Assembly: GCA_030324005.1 (NCBI GenBank)
Contig: JARDVH010000128.1
Location: forward strand, 18,346,545-18,410,544
Length of the DNA stretch: 64,000 nucleotides
Source of the DNA: Negaprion brevirostris
Lineage: Eukaryota
Direction: 5' to 3'
Part shown: positions 10,636 to 55,270 of the stretch, one piece after another
Position numbering within the stretch: the first letter of the stretch is position 1
Layout: each line of letters begins with the position of its first letter
Made by a program: the position numbers and the translations under genes
Notes under the pieces: model-generated
What the model was told of the DNA's origin: nothing
Database searches by the model: none
The model's input: only the letters and a program-made list of their open reading frames with translations

Positions 10636-10787
10636 TTATAAAGCAAACAGTGTATCCTTGGAACGGTCTGGTTTCTTTACGCTTTCAGCAAGCACTGCCA
10701 AAGGAGTAGAGTTACTGGAGGGAGGGGAAGGTAGATTTGGGACTCTCTCTGCTGCTTTTGCTCTTTCTTCCAAAAATTTATCAAATT
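10636..10787 (-). CDS. TOM1L2: TOM1L2 last coding exon 15: (E)[49 protein letters not shown]
   Basis: poly-T then ccag acceptor; [12 protein letters not shown] and terminal LFAL; TAA at 10636-10638. Confidence 0.97.
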
Positions 10788-11264: not shown

Positions 11265-11301
11265 CTTCACTTGTTACTCCTTCTTCTGCATCATCTCCTT
11301 T
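11265..11301 (-). CDS. TOM1L2: TOM1L2 exon 14, 37 nt: KGDDAEEGVTSE(E)
   Basis: tttcag acceptor, gtaag donor, phase 0 to 1; EGVTSEEF motif across the junction. Confidence 0.95.
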
Positions 11302-20845: not shown

Positions 20846-23684
20846 TAAGGGAGATAAGATCAGAAGTTTGGTTAAATGCTGTATTTTGTTCAGATCTATA
20901 TTGAGAACCTATTTTAAACCAAACTATGCACAAACTATTCCAAATGACTTTTTCACTCCAGGGCAGGTTAAATATTTAAGTGTTTATTTGTGCTCTGTGC
21001 CAGTGGGGTTACAAGCAGCAACATAGGCTATTTCTGTGCCTCATTCATTGGATGGAATTTTACTGACCTGCTGCTACGGGAATTGTAGCAGGCAAGGGGC
21101 AGAAAATGGAAAGGTCTGTTGACCTCGGGCGGGATTTTATGATTTTGGGATGATAAAGCCCCGCCCACTGTCAATCATGAGTCTCTTTTTCACCACACCA
21201 TCCCTCCAAAAATAAATCAATATATCCTTGTTATATTAGAAACTTTTAACAGAATGGAATACCTTGGCAATAGTTTTAGGACATCAGTCTAATTATGTCA
21301 ATGATTAATCACCATCAGTCTATGAACGACTGATGTAATAAGGAGAAAGGTTTTCACTTGGATTTCAGCTTGAAGTGAGTGGTTCTAATATTTTCCTCAT
21401 GCACAGACAATGTCAGATACAATTCATATCACAATTATTGAAATCTAGGGAATACACAGCAACAATATTTGATGTTTTTTTGAATGTCAAACTATATGTC
21501 ATTAAATATGTTCAAAGCTGAGATAGCGATAAGATTGGAATGATTTGTTTAAAAAAAAACCATGAAATGGGGAGAGTGAATTAAATGGAAAAGGAAATTG
21601 GGATGCAAATAAATCAGGGCACCAATGGGAACTAACAAATCAAATCTTGGTACACAAACCTCTGCATTCAATGAAGAAATACAAGAATGAGCAAAGATAT
21701 TCCAGAAACAAAACTGATTCAAAACAAATATAATTTTATCAACTTGAATTCCATCGTTTAGTTCTGCCATTAATTATTTCACACTTGTCTAAGATTGGTG
21801 GACGTATTGCCCTTTTTTGCTCCCTTAATATTTCATGCCAGGCTAAGTAGTTCCTGTGGGCAAGACAGCAGATAGGCTGTCCATTCCCAAGCCACAGTTC
21901 TAGGTCTTCGGCATAATTATAGCTATAATAATTATCACTCGGTCCATTGAGTCTCTGTCAGTGCTTTTAAAAAGCAATTCAATTAACTCCCGCTGTGCTG
22001 CACTTCCTCCATATCCCTGCAATTGCTTCTCTTTCAAGTATTTATCCAACCACCCACATCAGGTAGTGCATTCTGAATCCTGACTACTCGTCACATAAAA
22101 CTGTTTTTTCCTCACATTACCACTGTTCTTTTGCCATTCAATTATCAGCCCTTCAAATATTCCTTTATTTAAACCCATCAGGACTTCAGTAGCTCCATCA
22201 AGTCTCCCTTAGCCTTCCCTGCTCCAAGAACAATGCCAGCTTCTTCAGTCCATCCACATAAATGTCCCTTATTTCATAAATATGAGTCTGAAGTTACATG
22301 TAGGTAAGGACTGCAGATTTCCTTCCCTGAAGGACATTAGTAAAACAAATTGGCTTTTCTGACAATCGACAATGGCTTAATGTTCATCAGTAGATTCTTA
22401 ATTACAGATTTTTAAAAAAAATTGAATTCAAATTGCACCATCTGCCGTGGTGGGATTTAAATCCAGGTCTTCAGAAAATTTGATGAGTTTCCAGGTTAAT
22501 ATTCTAGCAACAATACCATCAAGCCTTCACCTCCCCTTCATCATGGAGTGCATTAGACCTGAACTTGATCCTGTTTTCAATAAACTGGCAAAAGAATGCC
22601 CTTTCTAGGGGTTGATGATTAGGAGTCAGAAGCAGAAGTCCCATCCGATCCCCAACCCTGGGGTGCTAGTCAACACTAGCTCTTGACAGCTCCAACAGTT
22701 AAAATCTGAATCTATTTTCTGATTTTACTACTCCAGTTCTAAAAGTATGCAAGCACAATACACCTCACATCAGATAAAGTCGCTCCAATTAGATTATGCC
22801 AGCACCCTAAGCCTCTTTGGTACAATAATGATCTTTTTGGTACAATAATGATTTGGCAATATATCACCATCTTTAAAAGGACTTTATCTATAAACAGGAC
22901 CTTTATTTAGAAAATAATGAATTTGAAAGTTTGCAGAGTGGTTTGATCTATACAATAAAACCAAGTGGGAACATACAAAGTGCAAAAAAATTGTTCTGGC
23001 ATGCTGTTTTTGTGCTTCAATCACTGTCAAATCTTTCTCTTCCACCAGGTGGTGGAAGTATTTTAAAAACAAAATCAACAAATCTCTTATTTTTGAAACT
23101 TTCAATGCAATGGGTTATAAACATGTTGGCAGCAGTTTTGGAAAATTTATTTAATTATGTCTAAAATTAGTCAAAAACAGTCTGTGAACAGTTCATGCCA
23201 TGAGGAGAAAGAGATTTTCACCTGGATCTTGGTTTGGAACAAAAGTGTTATAATTTCTTTCTCTCTCACAATGACAGCAGATTCAATTTATGTCACAGCA
23301 TGTTTTAATGTCGAGAAGGTACACAGCAAGACTCATGGATGGTTTTTGAATGTCTAATTCTATACAAGCGACTTGTGCATGAGCAAGATATACACACTAA
23401 CAGGCAGAAATTCCAGCAGATGGCTGGATATTCTTTTGCACATCAATANNNNNNNNNNTCAAGATCTCAAGAACAGAATGGAATTCAAACCATAAGTCTA
23501 TGTATTGCACGTTCTAGCATGGTCCAGTTCTTTGTTTAAATACAGGGTTAGGTAGAAGTACCATTCATATGTAATCATTCCTATATAACAATTTGGGGGG
23601 TGGGAGCAGGAACAGAGAGAGAAAAAAAAGTAGTGCTGAGAGAATTTCAAACCAAAGCAAAACAAAAAGCAAAAAGCCCCTCAC

Positions 23685-23741
23685 CACATCAGTGCTGAGC
23701 CATTCTTCAACGTCATCCATGATAGACTGTGCGACAGGAAT
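23685..23741 (-). CDS. TOM1L2: TOM1L2 exon 13, 57 nt: IPVAQSIMDDVEEWLSTDV (myosin VI-binding motif region)
   Basis: tgtag acceptor with long pyrimidine tract, gtgag donor, symmetric phase 0-0. Confidence 0.95.
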
Positions 23742-30090: not shown

Positions 30091-31878
30091 TGAGTGATGC
30101 CATGCAAACTATGGCATCATCAACTATCATTTCAGCTGACACCAGCAACTACATAGACCAGAAATAAAATTTGGGAGCGCCTGGTCCCATACAGTGTAGA
30201 TACAGACTGCTGCATTTACCTACTAATACACTATTAACCCTGTTACTGCCTTAAGAGAGGCTCATTAAATTAATTCAAAATTGTGGACTTGAGTGGACCT
30301 GATCCACTTATGCTGGCCCACAGAAGGGCACTTCCAATGATTTCATATACACTTCCACACAAGGCTCTGCCAACACCAATAAATATCCTTTATCTGTAGA
30401 TTCATCAACAAATTCAGCTGGTGTTCACATTGCTGTGCCTATTTTCCTCAGCATAAATCCAACACTGAATGCACAGTTACTTTACACAGACAGCTTTGGA
30501 AACAGAAGCAGTTCATTTACACCAGCAAAATCAAAAATAAGATTTGGTTGTACATCAGGTTCACTGCAATCCCTCCTGTATTAAGGAAATACAAGGTCCT
30601 TGCTTACATGCTGGAACTGGCCCAGATTCTATTTACACAGATGATTATGAAGATTGATCTTTTGGCAAGGAGACAAAAAAAAGTCCAGTTTAAATTATAC
30701 CGTTGAATTGTGAAGCACTCAGATCATTGAATAAGGAGTAGGAAAGAGCTGAGAACTAGAGAAGTTGAGGGTTATTTAATAATGGGTATGAGGGAGGTAA
30801 AATATCTGGGTCATAATCATACAATACAGACTTTAATACAGAGGAGAAGAGAGTTGTTTGCAATCAAATACAATAAAAATAATATTTTTCCTCAAAACTG
30901 AGAAATGTTAATTTGAGACAATGCAAATTATTATTCGTTTGCTTCTAGGACTTAGACAAATCAGCAAGTGCAACACAGTTAATGAATACTATGTTAAAAG
31001 GCATCTTATTAAAATATATTTCAAACTGTATAGTAAAAGACCAATTTATTTGTTACTTGAATCAGAAGAGGAATACTGCAATTACTACACAAAAAAATAA
31101 GGAGACCTGGATGCGCAGCACTACACCACCTCACTCCACCAGAAAAATATACTACATTTTTGTATTTTCTGCTGGCTCATCTGCACTGAACTGTTGATGC
31201 TTATTATGTTTCCAAATACCTAGACAGGTAAGAGCTTCAGTCTGTCAGGCTTTATGGTTTTACATGGAGACAGTTTGGGTAGTTTAACCTAATGCTTAGT
31301 GCATATTGGTGAATAACACATGGCTTTCTACATTTTAGGTACTAATCCTGTCCCTAGAGACCACAAAGATTGCAGGTTTAGGGAGACAGGTGGTGCTAAG
31401 ACACACTGTTGGAGTAAGGTGAAGGATAAGTGACTTGGTAGTTGACCTTTAACCTTGAAATACTTGACATTGACACTGGGTGACAAATTGTAAGCAGTCT
31501 TACACTGAAGTCTTGCAGTCAAGACTGTAAATCTGTACCCTAAAATAGAGAAAACACAGGAAAATGAAATTTCCATTTCCAAAACTTGTGCATTATAGTT
31601 TTCTCTGGGGGTATTGAGTGATTTCCAAGACCAGGACAAATTGTATTTTTCACTGAAGGAGTAGGTATTCGCTGACCTAACTATAGTTGATGTACTGTAC
31701 TTCTCCAGTACAGTGCAAACTTCAGCATAAAATAGATTGAGAATAATACATGTTATACTGTAAGGACACATTCATCTATCTGGTCTTTTACTGTGCAGTG
31801 TTGAATCAGTAAGGGTGTGGTTAGGGAGGGCAGGGGGTATCGCAGGTTGTTTAGCAGATCAACGTGGTGAAAGCTCAC

Positions 31879-31964
31879 CATTCCTTGTGTCATGAGCCAC
31901 TTGTCTATAGGCTCGAGGTCTGGATTGTCAGTTTNNNNNNNNNNGTTTTAATGTTCAGCTGCAT
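31879..31964 (-). CDS. TOM1L2: TOM1L2 candidate alternative exon 12b: MQLNIK(T)-gap-TDNPDLEPIDKWLMTQGM
   Basis: gttgcag acceptor, ATG/gtgag donor, phase 0-0, no stops in the readable parts; spans a 10-N gap. Resembles the DLEPIDSWLITQGM insert I recall from long vertebrate TOM1L2 isoforms (unverified). Confidence 0.8.
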
Positions 31965-32530
31965 CTGCAACAGAGCATTCTCAAAGGCCCAGTAGTCAAA
32001 AAAAGGACAAAGCCAAGAAAGAGAAAGAGAAATCCACATCAGATTACTGTAGAATATTTCCAGCACACCACTACGATTTTTTAGGCAAAAATAAATATTT
32101 GCACAGAAGTAACAACTTTCATCTCGAAGGTAATAAAAGTAATGGATGGTCATGAATGGATTACAAAAGGTTACTTGTTGCCTTGAAGTTAATGAGGTCA
32201 AAAATAAAGAACCTCTTATTTGTCTTAGTAATATTCCCAAACCATCATTTATATAGCATGCCCTGGCAAAATGATTAGTTCAGCAAGATTCTGTGTGAAA
32301 ACTGATTGGAGTAATATACAGATTACATGGTCAAACAGAATAACAAACTCGGACACAAACGTATGCATGTAAGCACCAGAAACAATGCAAATTTGTACAC
32401 TTGAATGGAAGTCCTTTCCATCAATGCGCATTTATTTAACCAAGTAGCATGTACCAAATCGTGCCTGTACATTTCAGCAAAGCAGCTGATATATCTGTGG
32501 TCTAGGATATTAAAAAAGTCATATCTGAAC

Positions 32531-32822
32531 ATGGTGGTTAGCACTGCTGTCCCACAGCACCAGGGATCTGGGTTCGATTCCCGACTTGGGTCACTGTCCG
32601 TGTGGAGTTTGTATGTTCTCCCCGTATCTGCATGGATTTCCTCCAGGTGCTCCGGGTTCCTTCCACAGTTTGAAAGACTTGCTGGTTGGGTGCATTGGCC
32701 ATGCTAAATTGTTCCTCAGTGTACTTGAATAGGTGCCAGACTGTGGCAATTAGGGGATTTTCGTTGCAGTGTTAAAGTAAGTCTACTTGTGACACTAATA
32801 AACAAATTTAAAACTTTAAACT
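32531..32822 (+). mobile_element. HE1-like SINE (alternative A-rich tail variant)
   Basis: ggttcgattccc B box, V-core, and cttgtgacactaataaa tail like the copies at 3986 and 56545. Confidence 0.85.
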
Positions 32823-36151: not shown

Positions 36152-36227
36152 CATTGCTGCATTATTTTGTCGAACATCAATGGCAGTTGCCAATCCTCCA
36201 ACTGACTGCAAGTCCTCATAGGTTACA
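36152..36227 (-). CDS. TOM1L2: TOM1L2 exon 12, 76 nt: (N)VTYEDLQSVGGLATAIDVRQNNAAM
   Basis: ttgcag acceptor after an 83-nt intron, gtaag donor, phase 2 to 0. Confidence 0.95.
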
Positions 36228-51082: not shown

Positions 51083-52329
51083 CTAGGAGTAAAAACACCA
51101 ATAACATGTATCAAAATCTTTCCAACATACAGGAAAGATTAATAATTGTCATGACACATTTTCTATTATGACCTAAATTTCTGCTCCTGGGAATTTCAGG
51201 CTTTGTTCAAAGAGCACAACATTAAGACCAGGCCCTGTACTCCACTGTTAATGAGCTGTAGGCAATGTATCCAGTTTTGCATCTAAATTTCCTGTGACTG
51301 CAACCTTGGGGCACAAAAATGCATTGTTGTCTCAAGCAGTTGATGGTTAGCCCTGCACTGGGACCAGCACTAGTCTGGGGACAGCATAGCACTGCACATT
51401 TTGAGTATGTCTTGTCTGTTTGGCAACCGGGAAGGCAATTGAAGGGACGGAGTTGCCAAAAGGAAAAATAAAATCAGACAGCTTTGGCTTTCTGGCCATG
51501 ATAGTAGAGTACAATATCGCACTATATTGCATATTTGCTCACTAAGACACCAAGAAAACACTATCAAAAGTTTGCAAATGGTTAATGGAATGCCATTTTT
51601 ACCTCTATTATTACCCATTTGGTACTTACTAAAGAGCAGTCAAATTACAAGTTAAAAAGCGGTGAGATTTGAGGACAGGTTCAGGGTCATAAAAGCAGTG
51701 AGATTTCCAAGGAGAGTGGGGCCATTACACAGTCTCTGGGTCCAGAATCCATGTTTGGAAATAAAAGAAAACGTGAGATGTGACATCACAGGGAAGCAGG
51801 TAAATGTGGCTGGTAAGCATTTCCCATTCATCTTACCTAAACAAAGGAATTTAAATCCAGGGAGTAGAACATAACCTTTAAATAATAAGTATATACACAC
51901 AGACAAGACTTGAGGCATCAATTAAAAACACAATGAAATATTTAGTTAATTAAAACACAATAAAGATTGCAAGGCAGGTGTTTTGCGGTGTGATCCCAGG
52001 CAAATACATCTGCAGTAAATATCTGCAGCTTGGGTAGTGTTGACTCTGATTTACTGAGCTAGAGGCCAAGCTGCAGACACTACGATGCATCAGGAAAAGT
52101 AACTTGAATATTTTGTTCCAAACAGCAATTAGACTCCTTAGACTAGGGTCATCGGATTTGGTCCATGTGAAGGAACACAAGACTGTGATGGCAGGAGAGN
52201 NNNNNNNNNTAGGAGCCAGTCCTTGCACTTGTCCAAGTGGTTCAAAGTTCTTGTAGCTTTTATGGATGACAGAATGGGCTGCAGGGTGGATAAGCAAAGT
52301 CACCATGGTATAGAAAGCCATTCAAGCAG

Positions 52330-54559: not shown

Positions 54560-55270
54560 CCTCTATTCAAGAAATGAAAGAGATAAAAAGCAGGAAATTA
54601 TTTGCCAGCTAGCCTAATATCTGTGCAGGGAAAATGCTAGAATCTATTACTAAGGATGTACTAGTAGGACATTTTTTTTAAAAAAAATCACAATATATTC
54701 AGATGGAGTCAACACGGTTTTGTGAAAGGAGAATTGTGTTTGACTCATTTATTGGAATTCTTCAAGGATGTGACATGCAATGTGGATAAAGGGGAACTAT
54801 GACTTCTTATTGTCTCAGGATATGGGAGCAGGCCACTCAGGACTGAAACGAGAAGAAATTTCTTCATTTAATGAGTGAATTTGTGGAAGTCTCTACCAAA
54901 GAAAGCTATGGAGGCCAAGTCACTGAATATACTTAAGGAGGAAATATATAGATTTCTAGTCACTAAAGGTGCCAAGGGGAATGGGGAAAGAGTTGGAGTA
55001 TGGCACCGAGATAGTAAATAAATGGATGACCTTCACCATAGTGCTAGACGACCATGGACTGCTCTCCCTTTGTGGTGATTAAACCTGAGGATCACTACAC
55101 CTCAGGCGAGGGGCAAGGTTGAAAAGCAGGCCCTCATGAATAACTTCAGCCGGTATACGAATTGAACCTTTGCTGCTGTCATCACTCTGTGGCCAACTGA
55201 ACTAACCAAAGCCCTTGTGGTGGAGGATCAGCCATGATCATATTGAATGGCAGAGCAGGCNNNNNNNNNN
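54560..55270 (+). mobile_element. CR1-like LINE fragments (internally deleted), with a SINE inserted
   Basis: VTPLFKK and SQHGFVKG..CLTHLLEFF..DKGE, then a jump to the 3' end. Confidence 0.75.
55025..55207 (-). mobile_element. Third tRNA-derived SINE family (unclassified)
   Basis: ggttagttcagttgg A box and ggttcaattc B box on the minus strand. Confidence 0.6.

What the first reader, a model, noticed from the sequence alone, without database searches (positions are those of the whole stretch)
31879..31964. Hidden cassette exon, split by an assembly gap, that adds a second myosin-VI-binding-like motif
Seen: good splice sites and phase 0-0. The 5' part reads MQLNIK(T) and the 3' part TDNPDLEPIDKWLMTQGM. 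The span is 86 nt with a 10-N placeholder, so an 11-nt true gap gives 87 nt in frame; annotation pipelines would likely miss it. Known: TOM1/TOM1L2 bind myosin VI through an I-E-x-W-L motif (exon 13 here, DDVEEWL). Inference: EPIDKWL is a tandem paralogous motif, possibly from an ancient exon duplication, that tunes MYO6 binding. I recall a similar insert in long tetrapod isoforms, which would date it to the jawed-vertebrate ancestor (unverified). A second CAG 6 nt downstream offers an in-frame alternative acceptor.
Basis: partly seen in the sequence, partly recalled or inferred. Interest (0 to 1): 0.7.

Follow-up and report, generated by a model that had tools for sequence, protein, structure and literature searches.

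The report
Duplicated BBSome-handle exon in TOM1L2
This optional exon of the shark TOM1L2 gene is real, is kept from lampreys to humans, and carries a likely second copy of a short motif that probably grips the BBSome (the complex that clears receptors from cilia) rather than myosin VI, so splicing would set how many such grips the protein has.

Summary
(1) The gap is not 11 nt. Contigs from 3 of 4 runs laid leave out 14 letters (10 N plus 4 duplicated bases), so the exon is 72 nt, or 66 nt from the second CAG. (2) I-E-x-W-L is not the myosin VI site. Hu 2019 found no binding to that fragment, and Shinde 2022 mapped the motif as the BBSome-binding motif. The exon is already in RefSeq TOM1L2 models from lamprey, sharks, fishes, reptiles, birds and human. 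The inferred mouse orthologue is included at about 14-43% in retina, and the neighbouring exon 13 is also skipped. Not found in the papers searched: the TOM1 paralogue of this genome has a matching 66-nt exon-like stretch in the same intron, and the four named invertebrates carry one motif. A profile of single-copy motifs scores the cassette as high as exon 13. So the motif exon likely duplicated in the vertebrate stem, giving isoforms with 0, 1 or 2 W-L motifs. That the second copy binds the BBSome is untested (about 50%).

The parts
31879..31964 (-). TOM1L2 cassette exon (12b), phase 0-0; true length 72 nt (24 codons) once the gap artefact is discounted
   Evidence: splice sites in sequence; 14 letters left out in contigs of 3 of 4 runs; both halves adjacent in P0172
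31959..31961 (-). second CAG acceptor; exon from 31958 = 66 nt (22 codons)
   Evidence: sequence; 22-aa form in most other shark, ray and bird models; use in this species not shown
31931..31944 (.). assembly artefact: 10-N placeholder plus 4 duplicated bases (a negative gap)
31894..31914 (-). E-P-I-D-K-W-L: second W-L motif, likely paralogue of the exon-13 BBSome-binding motif
   Evidence: profile of 41 single-copy motifs scores it 16.8 against 15.9 for exon 13 and 0.8 for the next window in the catshark orthologue P0121; function untested
36152..36227 (-). TOM1L2 exon 12 (76 nt), upstream neighbour
23685..23741 (-). TOM1L2 exon 13 (57 nt, phase 0-0), with D-D-V-E-E-W-L, orthologous to the human E-V-W-L-R BBSome-binding motif; itself skipped in some isoforms
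   Evidence: Shinde passages; mouse inclusion 0.68-0.78
11265..11301 (-). TOM1L2 exon 14 (37 nt): acidic linker and start of the true myosin VI-binding segment
   Evidence: PDB 6J56 Tom1 peptide aligns to P0011 478-503, starting at G-V-T-S-E
10636..10787 (-). coding part of the last exon: the E-F-D-K-F-L helix that binds myosin VI, present whichever W-L exon is used

Best explanation
This is a conserved in-frame cassette exon of TOM1L2 (72 or 66 nt) that likely arose by tandem duplication of the W-L motif exon in the vertebrate stem, and it likely adds a second BBSome-binding motif rather than a myosin VI site. Shown: the exon, its length, its presence in annotated proteins from lamprey to human, and a matching exon-like stretch in the TOM1 paralogue. 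From published data: the exon-13 motif binds the BBSome and not MYO6; both exons are partly skipped in mouse retina (orthology of the mouse exon inferred from exon sizes). Inferred: the duplication (about 0.8). Also inferred: the cassette peptide binds the BBSome (about 0.5), so that skipping both, including one, or including both would give TOM1L2 with 0, 1 or 2 BBSome handles while the MYO6 helix stays constant, tuning retrieval of ubiquitinated receptors from cilia.
For: LENGTH. CONSERVATION: human X1 (P0292), bats, rodents, elephant, armadillo, birds, turtles, lizards, gar, sturgeon, bichir, teleosts and chimaera; lamprey isoforms with and without a 19-aa version. Of 75 distinct cassette peptides, E(-5) is kept in 72, P(-4) in 74, T(+3) in 70 and G(+5) in 75; D, W, L and Q were required by my search pattern and do not count. 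EXPRESSION OF THE MOUSE ORTHOLOGUE: a 63-nt Tom1l2 exon between 76-nt and 60-nt exons has inclusion 0.17-0.29 in wild-type retina (PMC4991804 suppl. file 3) and 0.22-0.43 in PMC9509328 Supplementary Data 14. The 60-nt exon 13 has inclusion 0.68-0.78. All four combinations occur among 277 of 331 stored proteins that carry the downstream anchor: both 173, exon 13 only 65, neither 33, cassette only 6 (set enriched for the cassette; many are predicted models). DUPLICATION: adjacent exons, both phase 0-0, W-L 5 and 4 codons before the donor. The single-copy profile ranks the two motifs first and second in 5 of 6 proteins; 10 of 50000 free shuffles and 33 of 50000 with W-L fixed reach the shark score. 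Among 62 cluster representatives with the MYO6 anchor, 45 have one motif, 15 none and 2 have two (newt TOM1, lamprey TOM1L2). Amphioxus, sea star, sea urchin and brachiopod records have one. TOM1 locus G000:C177:3532374-3532309 (-): 66 nt, AG/GT, open frame, ending I-D-N-W-M-L-N-Q-G-M; DNA match score 53 against a maximum of 39 in 500 shuffles. FUNCTION OF THE MOTIF CLASS: Shinde section 8 proposes W-L as the common BBSome-binding core.
Against: No binding test or complex prediction was done. The cassette differs from the tested motif: proline at -4, a hydrophobic residue after W-L (I/M against R/S), and an invariant Q-G tail, so specificity may have diverged. The TOM1 copies read W-M, and in newt TOM1 the single-copy profile did not rank the cassette in its top 4; the lamprey cassette scored only 3.2. 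Direct cassette-versus-exon-13 similarity is weak: 2274 of 100000 shuffles, 7593 of 100000 with W-L fixed, and no DNA-level similarity (389 of 2000 shuffles). The single-copy profile was built from sequences picked by a pattern of my own. Invertebrate records are mostly one isoform each, so a skipped second exon there is not excluded. No photoreceptor enrichment (FDR 0.46) and no change in the Musashi-paper comparison (P 0.60). No junction read from this shark. The TOM1 stretch has a weak pyrimidine tract and no expression evidence here.
Confidence: 0.5

Rival explanations
1. The exon is a real duplicate, but its motif has specialised for another partner, for example an ESCRT Bro1-domain protein (ALIX, HD-PTP, BROX). 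Both W-L motifs fit a hydrophobic-x-x-hydrophobic-x-x-W helix pattern like the CHMP4 tail (pattern recalled, from no call).
For: The cassette-specific P(-4) and T-Q-G are kept from sharks to human. The ancestral motif reads D/E-F/L-D/E-E-M-E-x-W-L. [quoted passage not shown] TOM1 proteins act in ESCRT-0 sorting (PMC13386808 passages).
Against: The only partner shown experimentally for this motif class in the papers I read is the BBSome. The listing showed no paper on a direct TOM1-Bro1 contact (titles and abstract starts only). Hydrophobic moments are modest, 0.22-0.40.
Confidence: 0.25
2. The exon is a weak or decoy copy, or a 22-residue spacer that changes access to the exon-13 motif, without binding by itself.
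For: The N-terminal half of the exon varies freely in sequence and length (19-29 aa). Inclusion is minor, about 14-43% in mouse retina. TOM1 copies have drifted to W-M.
Against: The C-terminal 12 residues are nearly invariant across jawed vertebrates and recognisable in lamprey, which a mere spacer does not need. Six models put the cassette in place of exon 13.
Confidence: 0.2
3. One reading: the exon adds a second myosin VI-binding motif that tunes MYO6 binding.
For: An earlier report, cited as ref. 45 in PMC6673701, implicated IEXWL (I did not see that report). The exon lies about 35 residues upstream of the MYO6 helix.
Against: Tom1 392-437 gave no ITC binding and W423 did not shift in NMR; the site is 437-463, Kd 0.67 uM. 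The 6J56 peptide aligns to P0011 478-503, downstream of both W-L motifs at 445 and 465. Mutating or deleting the motif left MYO6 binding intact.
Confidence: 0.05

Closest known systems
TOM1L2 RefSeq long isoforms (e.g. Scyliorhinus torazame X1 XP_072337164.1; human isoform X1, P0292)
   Same: Same exon, same position between exons 12 and 13, same E-P-I-D-x-W-L-x-T-Q-G-M core.
   Different: Here the exon is broken by a negative assembly gap. The acceptor varies by lineage: 24 aa in catsharks, 22 aa in most others, 21 aa in rodents, 29 aa in the human model. No function is given in the records.
BBSome-binding motif of TOM1L2/TOM1 (E-V-W-L-R; Shinde et al., bioRxiv 10.1101/2022.09.23.509287)
   Same: W-L core preceded by acidic and hydrophobic residues in the same register, in the neighbouring exon.
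   Different: The cassette has Pro at -4, I/M after W-L and a Q-G tail, and was not tested. By residue numbering the mapped construct lacks the cassette (inferred: W390 of about 456 against 67 residues from W to the end in P0292).
Tom1 myosin VI-binding motif (residues 437-463, PDB 6J56; Hu et al., PMC6673701)
   Same: Same disordered tail, a few dozen residues away.
   Different: Different sequence and different exons (14 and last); the cassette is not part of it.
Tandem exon duplication giving alternative copies of a short linear motif (general knowledge, recalled)
   Same: Adjacent symmetric exons of like size, each skippable.
   Different: The two exons here are not strictly mutually exclusive: the both-included form is common in annotation.

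Membership tests
TOM1L2 cassette exon (orthologue of the RefSeq long-isoform insert) | lies between exon 12 and exon 13 of TOM1L2, not TOM1 | tested here: met
   window VHS exon 100% to shark TOM1L2; the paralogue on C177 is 80%; exon order
TOM1L2 cassette exon (orthologue of the RefSeq long-isoform insert) | length a multiple of 3, no stop, AG/GT ends | tested here: met
   72 or 66 nt after 14 letters are left out
TOM1L2 cassette exon (orthologue of the RefSeq long-isoform insert) | spliced into mRNA in this species | tested here: inconclusive
   no joint in the contigs laid, and no run on record as RNA; the mouse orthologue has inclusion counts
Myosin VI-binding motif of TOM1 proteins | sequence matches the Tom1 437-463 helix of 6J56 | tested here: not met
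   the 6J56 peptide maps to P0011 478-503, downstream of both W-L motifs
Myosin VI-binding motif of TOM1 proteins | binds the MYO6 C-terminal cargo-binding domain | not testable with these tools
   published tests of the parent IEXWL motif are negative
BBSome-binding motif (BBM) of TOM1L2/TOM1 | W-L dipeptide with upstream acidic-hydrophobic residues in register | tested here: met
   profile score 16.8 against 15.9 for exon 13; 33 of 50000 shuffles with W-L fixed; weaker against exon 13 alone
BBSome-binding motif (BBM) of TOM1L2/TOM1 | small or basic residue after W-L (R in human TOM1L2, S in TOM1) | tested here: not met
   I in 53 and M in 22 of 75 cassette peptides (my pattern allowed only M, I or L here); whether this position is defining is open, since exon 13 itself has S, R, G or C
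BBSome-binding motif (BBM) of TOM1L2/TOM1 | captures purified BBSome; W-L mutation abolishes capture | not testable with these tools
   needs a pull-down; the receiving subunit is not named in the passages read
Duplicate of exon 13 | same phase, adjacent, motif homology above chance | tested here: met
   phase 0-0, 57 against 66/72 nt
Duplicate of exon 13 | DNA-level similarity between the two exons | tested here: not met
   389 of 2000 shuffles reach the score; loss is expected for so old an event, so this does not exclude it
Bro1-domain-binding helix (CHMP4-like) | binds the Bro1 hydrophobic patch | not tested
   pattern resemblance recalled only; no partner sequence was on hand

The most novel reading that the evidence does not exclude
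Vertebrates duplicated the single BBSome-binding exon of the ancestral TOM1 gene before TOM1 and TOM1L2 split and before lampreys diverged. Independent skipping of the two exons yields TOM1L2 with zero, one or two BBSome handles on a constant myosin VI helix: a splice-coded dial that sends ubiquitinated ciliary receptors either to BBSome retrieval or to MYO6-dependent routes such as ectocytosis, tissue by tissue.
Probability: 0.3. Interest if true: 0.7.

Novelty: new member of a known kind. Interest (0 to 1): 0.42.

Why it matters
TOM1L2 is the adaptor that links ubiquitinated receptors to the BBSome for exit from cilia. Shinde et al. leave open whether competition between BBSome and MYO6 decides retrieval versus ectocytosis. 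Natural isoforms with 0, 1 or 2 BBSome motifs would make that question testable without artificial mutants, and could bear on tissue differences in Bardet-Biedl syndrome. The exon itself is already annotated, so the value lies in the reinterpretation and the dating. It is also a clean example of a 10-N placeholder hiding a 4-base overlap that frameshifts a real exon.

Tried and rejected
11-nt gap fill: rejected. MYO6 motif: rejected. One X7 contig begins at the donor (31879), but this is a single run and is not counted. Photoreceptor-specific or Musashi-regulated exon: no support (FDR 0.46; P 0.60; no TOM1L2 or TOM1 entry in the files of PMC9303857 that were searched, files 13-18 not searched). 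Splicing-factor motifs: no RBFOX or QKI site within 300 nt on either side. My first pattern scan of the TOM1 intron missed the paralogous exon because it reads W-M; the profile scan found it. The lamprey shuffle test did not finish (script error). No structure or complex was predicted: the peptide is short, and no full BBSome, MYO6 or Bro1 sequence was on hand. Literature: searches listed no paper on this exon or on TOM1L2 splice forms and the BBSome (titles and abstract starts; passages of the papers named in the report). Subscription papers are mostly absent; Tumbarello 2012 and the Dev Cell version of Shinde were not held. Supplements of PMC10987577 and of the bioRxiv papers could not be read, and PMC4991804 file 11 was not searched; they may hold tissue data on the exon. 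Earlier scan findings: none.

Full report
1. The observation. The window holds most of a shark TOM1L2 gene on the minus strand. One VHS exon is 100% identical to Mustelus, Heterodontus and Scyliorhinus TOM1L2 proteins, and the genome has paralogous exons on C177 (80%) and C137 (44%). The candidate exon at 31964-31879 has an AG acceptor, a GTGAG donor, a second CAG 6 nt inside and a 10-N gap at 31935-31944. It lies 4187 nt below exon 12 and 8137 nt above exon 13.

2. The gap. The two sides of the gap share four bases. Of four runs laid on 31560-32480, three have contigs that leave out 14 letters at 31931. X2, which has the same organism label as the best holder, spans the whole stretch with no other difference; X7 and X15 are relatives. 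X1 has no piece across the place. The exon is therefore 72 nt, or 66 nt from the second CAG, not 87 nt. The two translated halves are adjacent in the Mustelus model P0172. No joint was seen and no holder is on record as RNA, so splicing in this species is not shown.

3. Conservation. Of 114 exon-13-bearing proteins carry the insert directly upstream. Catshark models use the 24-aa form. White, basking, carpet and saw sharks, rays, chimaera, gar, bichir, turtles and most birds use 22 aa; rodents 21; the human X1 model 29. Lamprey has isoforms with and without a 19-aa version. Among 75 distinct cassette peptides, E(-5) is kept in 72, P(-4) in 74, T(+3) in 70 and G(+5) in 75. D, W, L and Q were demanded by my pattern and prove nothing. 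The exon is thus already annotated; only this assembly breaks it.

4. Expression elsewhere. In PMC4991804 (rows of supplementary file 3 only), a 63-nt Tom1l2 exon lies between a 76-nt and a 60-nt exon, followed by a 37-nt exon. These sizes match shark exons 12 (76 nt) and 14 (37 nt), the 20-codon mammalian exon 13 and the 21-aa rodent insert, so I infer orthology; I did not see the mouse sequence. Inclusion is 0.17-0.29 in wild-type retina and 0.14-0.16 in Aipl1-/- retina (FDR 0.46). Exon 13 inclusion is 0.68-0.78. PMC9509328 (one supplementary row) gives 0.22-0.43 with no difference between its two groups. Both exons are therefore optional. Stored proteins show all four combinations: 173, 65, 33 and 6 of 277 (enriched set, many predicted models).

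5. What the motif binds. Hu et al. (PMC6673701, part 2 of 8 of the text and one passage) report that Tom1 392-437, which holds IEXWL, does not bind the MYO6 cargo domain, and that the site is 437-463. The crystallised peptide aligns to P0011 478-503, downstream of both W-L motifs. Shinde et al. (bioRxiv 10.1101/2022.09.23.509287, section 8 and passages; supplementary figures not seen) map E-V-W-L-R of TOM1L2 as the BBSome-binding motif, separable from the MYO6 site and required for GPCR exit from cilia, and suggest W-L as the shared core. Passages of PMC13520375, bioRxiv 10.1101/2025.07.29.667331 and the review PMC13386808 support the TOM1L2-BBSome or MYO6 roles; none of the passages seen mentions this exon.

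6. Origin. A cassette profile scanned over the TOM1 locus ranked first a stretch in the same intron (score 6.7, only slightly above background). On inspection it is 66 nt, AG/GT, open and phase 0-0, shares its last nine bases with the window exon, and has a similar donor flank (G000:C177:3532374-3532309; DNA score 53 against at most 39 in 500 shuffles). Newt TOM1 has annotated isoforms with and without a 21-aa insert there. Of 62 cluster representatives with the MYO6 anchor, 45 have one motif, 15 none and 2 two; only 8 of them were named, among them amphioxus, sea star, sea urchin and brachiopod with one each. In the brachiopod the single motif segment is missing from one of three isoforms. 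A profile of 41 single-copy motifs scores the catshark cassette 16.8, exon 13 15.9 and the next window 0.8; 10 of 50000 free and 33 of 50000 W-L-fixed shuffles reach it (human: 41 and 372). Against this: direct comparison with exon 13 is weak, DNA similarity is nil, the lamprey cassette scores 3.2 and the newt TOM1 cassette is not in the top 4, and invertebrate records are mostly single isoforms. The likeliest history is an old skippable motif exon, duplicated in the vertebrate stem before the TOM1/TOM1L2 split, tightly kept in TOM1L2 and drifting to W-M in TOM1.

7. Mechanism. Best reading (0.5): the cassette is a second BBSome handle. In the cassette-only form its W-L sits 5 residues before the acidic linker, against 4 for exon 13, so it could substitute; with both exons it could raise avidity; with neither, TOM1L2 would keep ubiquitin and MYO6 binding but lose BBSome coupling. 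All of this is inferred. Rivals: another partner such as a Bro1-domain protein (0.25; pattern recalled), spacer or decoy (0.2), MYO6 site (0.05).

8. Novelty and verdict. The exon is known to annotation and appears unremarked in splicing tables. Eight literature searches listed nothing on its function or origin, with the library's gaps and unread supplements as caveats. It is a likely new copy of a known motif made by a known process. Interest 0.42; about 0.7 if a splice-coded BBSome dial is shown.

Noticed in passing
G000:C177:3532309-3532374 (-), in L002: Exon-like paralogue of the cassette in the TOM1 gene of the same genome (66 nt, W-M instead of W-L); expression untested.
   Followed up: yes
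window 31878-31750 (-): Two Mustelus models (P0002, P0172) read through the cassette's donor to a stop in the intron, ending the protein before exon 13 and the MYO6 helix; the window's read-through frame stays open for 41 codons. May be a prediction from retained intron.
   Followed up: partly
L005:5226-5602 (G000:C97, about 74995725-74996101): A 377-nt copy, 83% identical, of the TOM1L2 last exon and start of its 3' UTR, without an AG acceptor in front; looks like a truncated retrocopy.
   Followed up: partly
P0340, P0498 (Lingula): In a brachiopod the single W-L motif segment (18 aa) is absent from one of three isoforms, suggesting that skipping of this motif is older than vertebrates.
   Followed up: partly
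window 36152-36154 (-): The last codon of exon 12 reads Met here, where the related shark models have Val.
   Followed up: no
window 60354-60175 (-), 32535-32720 and many other introns: Reverse-transcriptase-like fragment and many copies of a short interspersed repeat shared with L005 (class judged by eye).
   Followed up: no
window 23449-23458, 52200-52209, 55261-55270: Three further 10-N placeholders, which may likewise stand for small or negative gaps.
   Followed up: no
P0484, P0488, P0494, P0495 (lamprey): Lamprey ATPAF2 proteins cluster with TOM1L2 through long fused models (P0491, P0497), which points to neighbouring genes.
   Followed up: no
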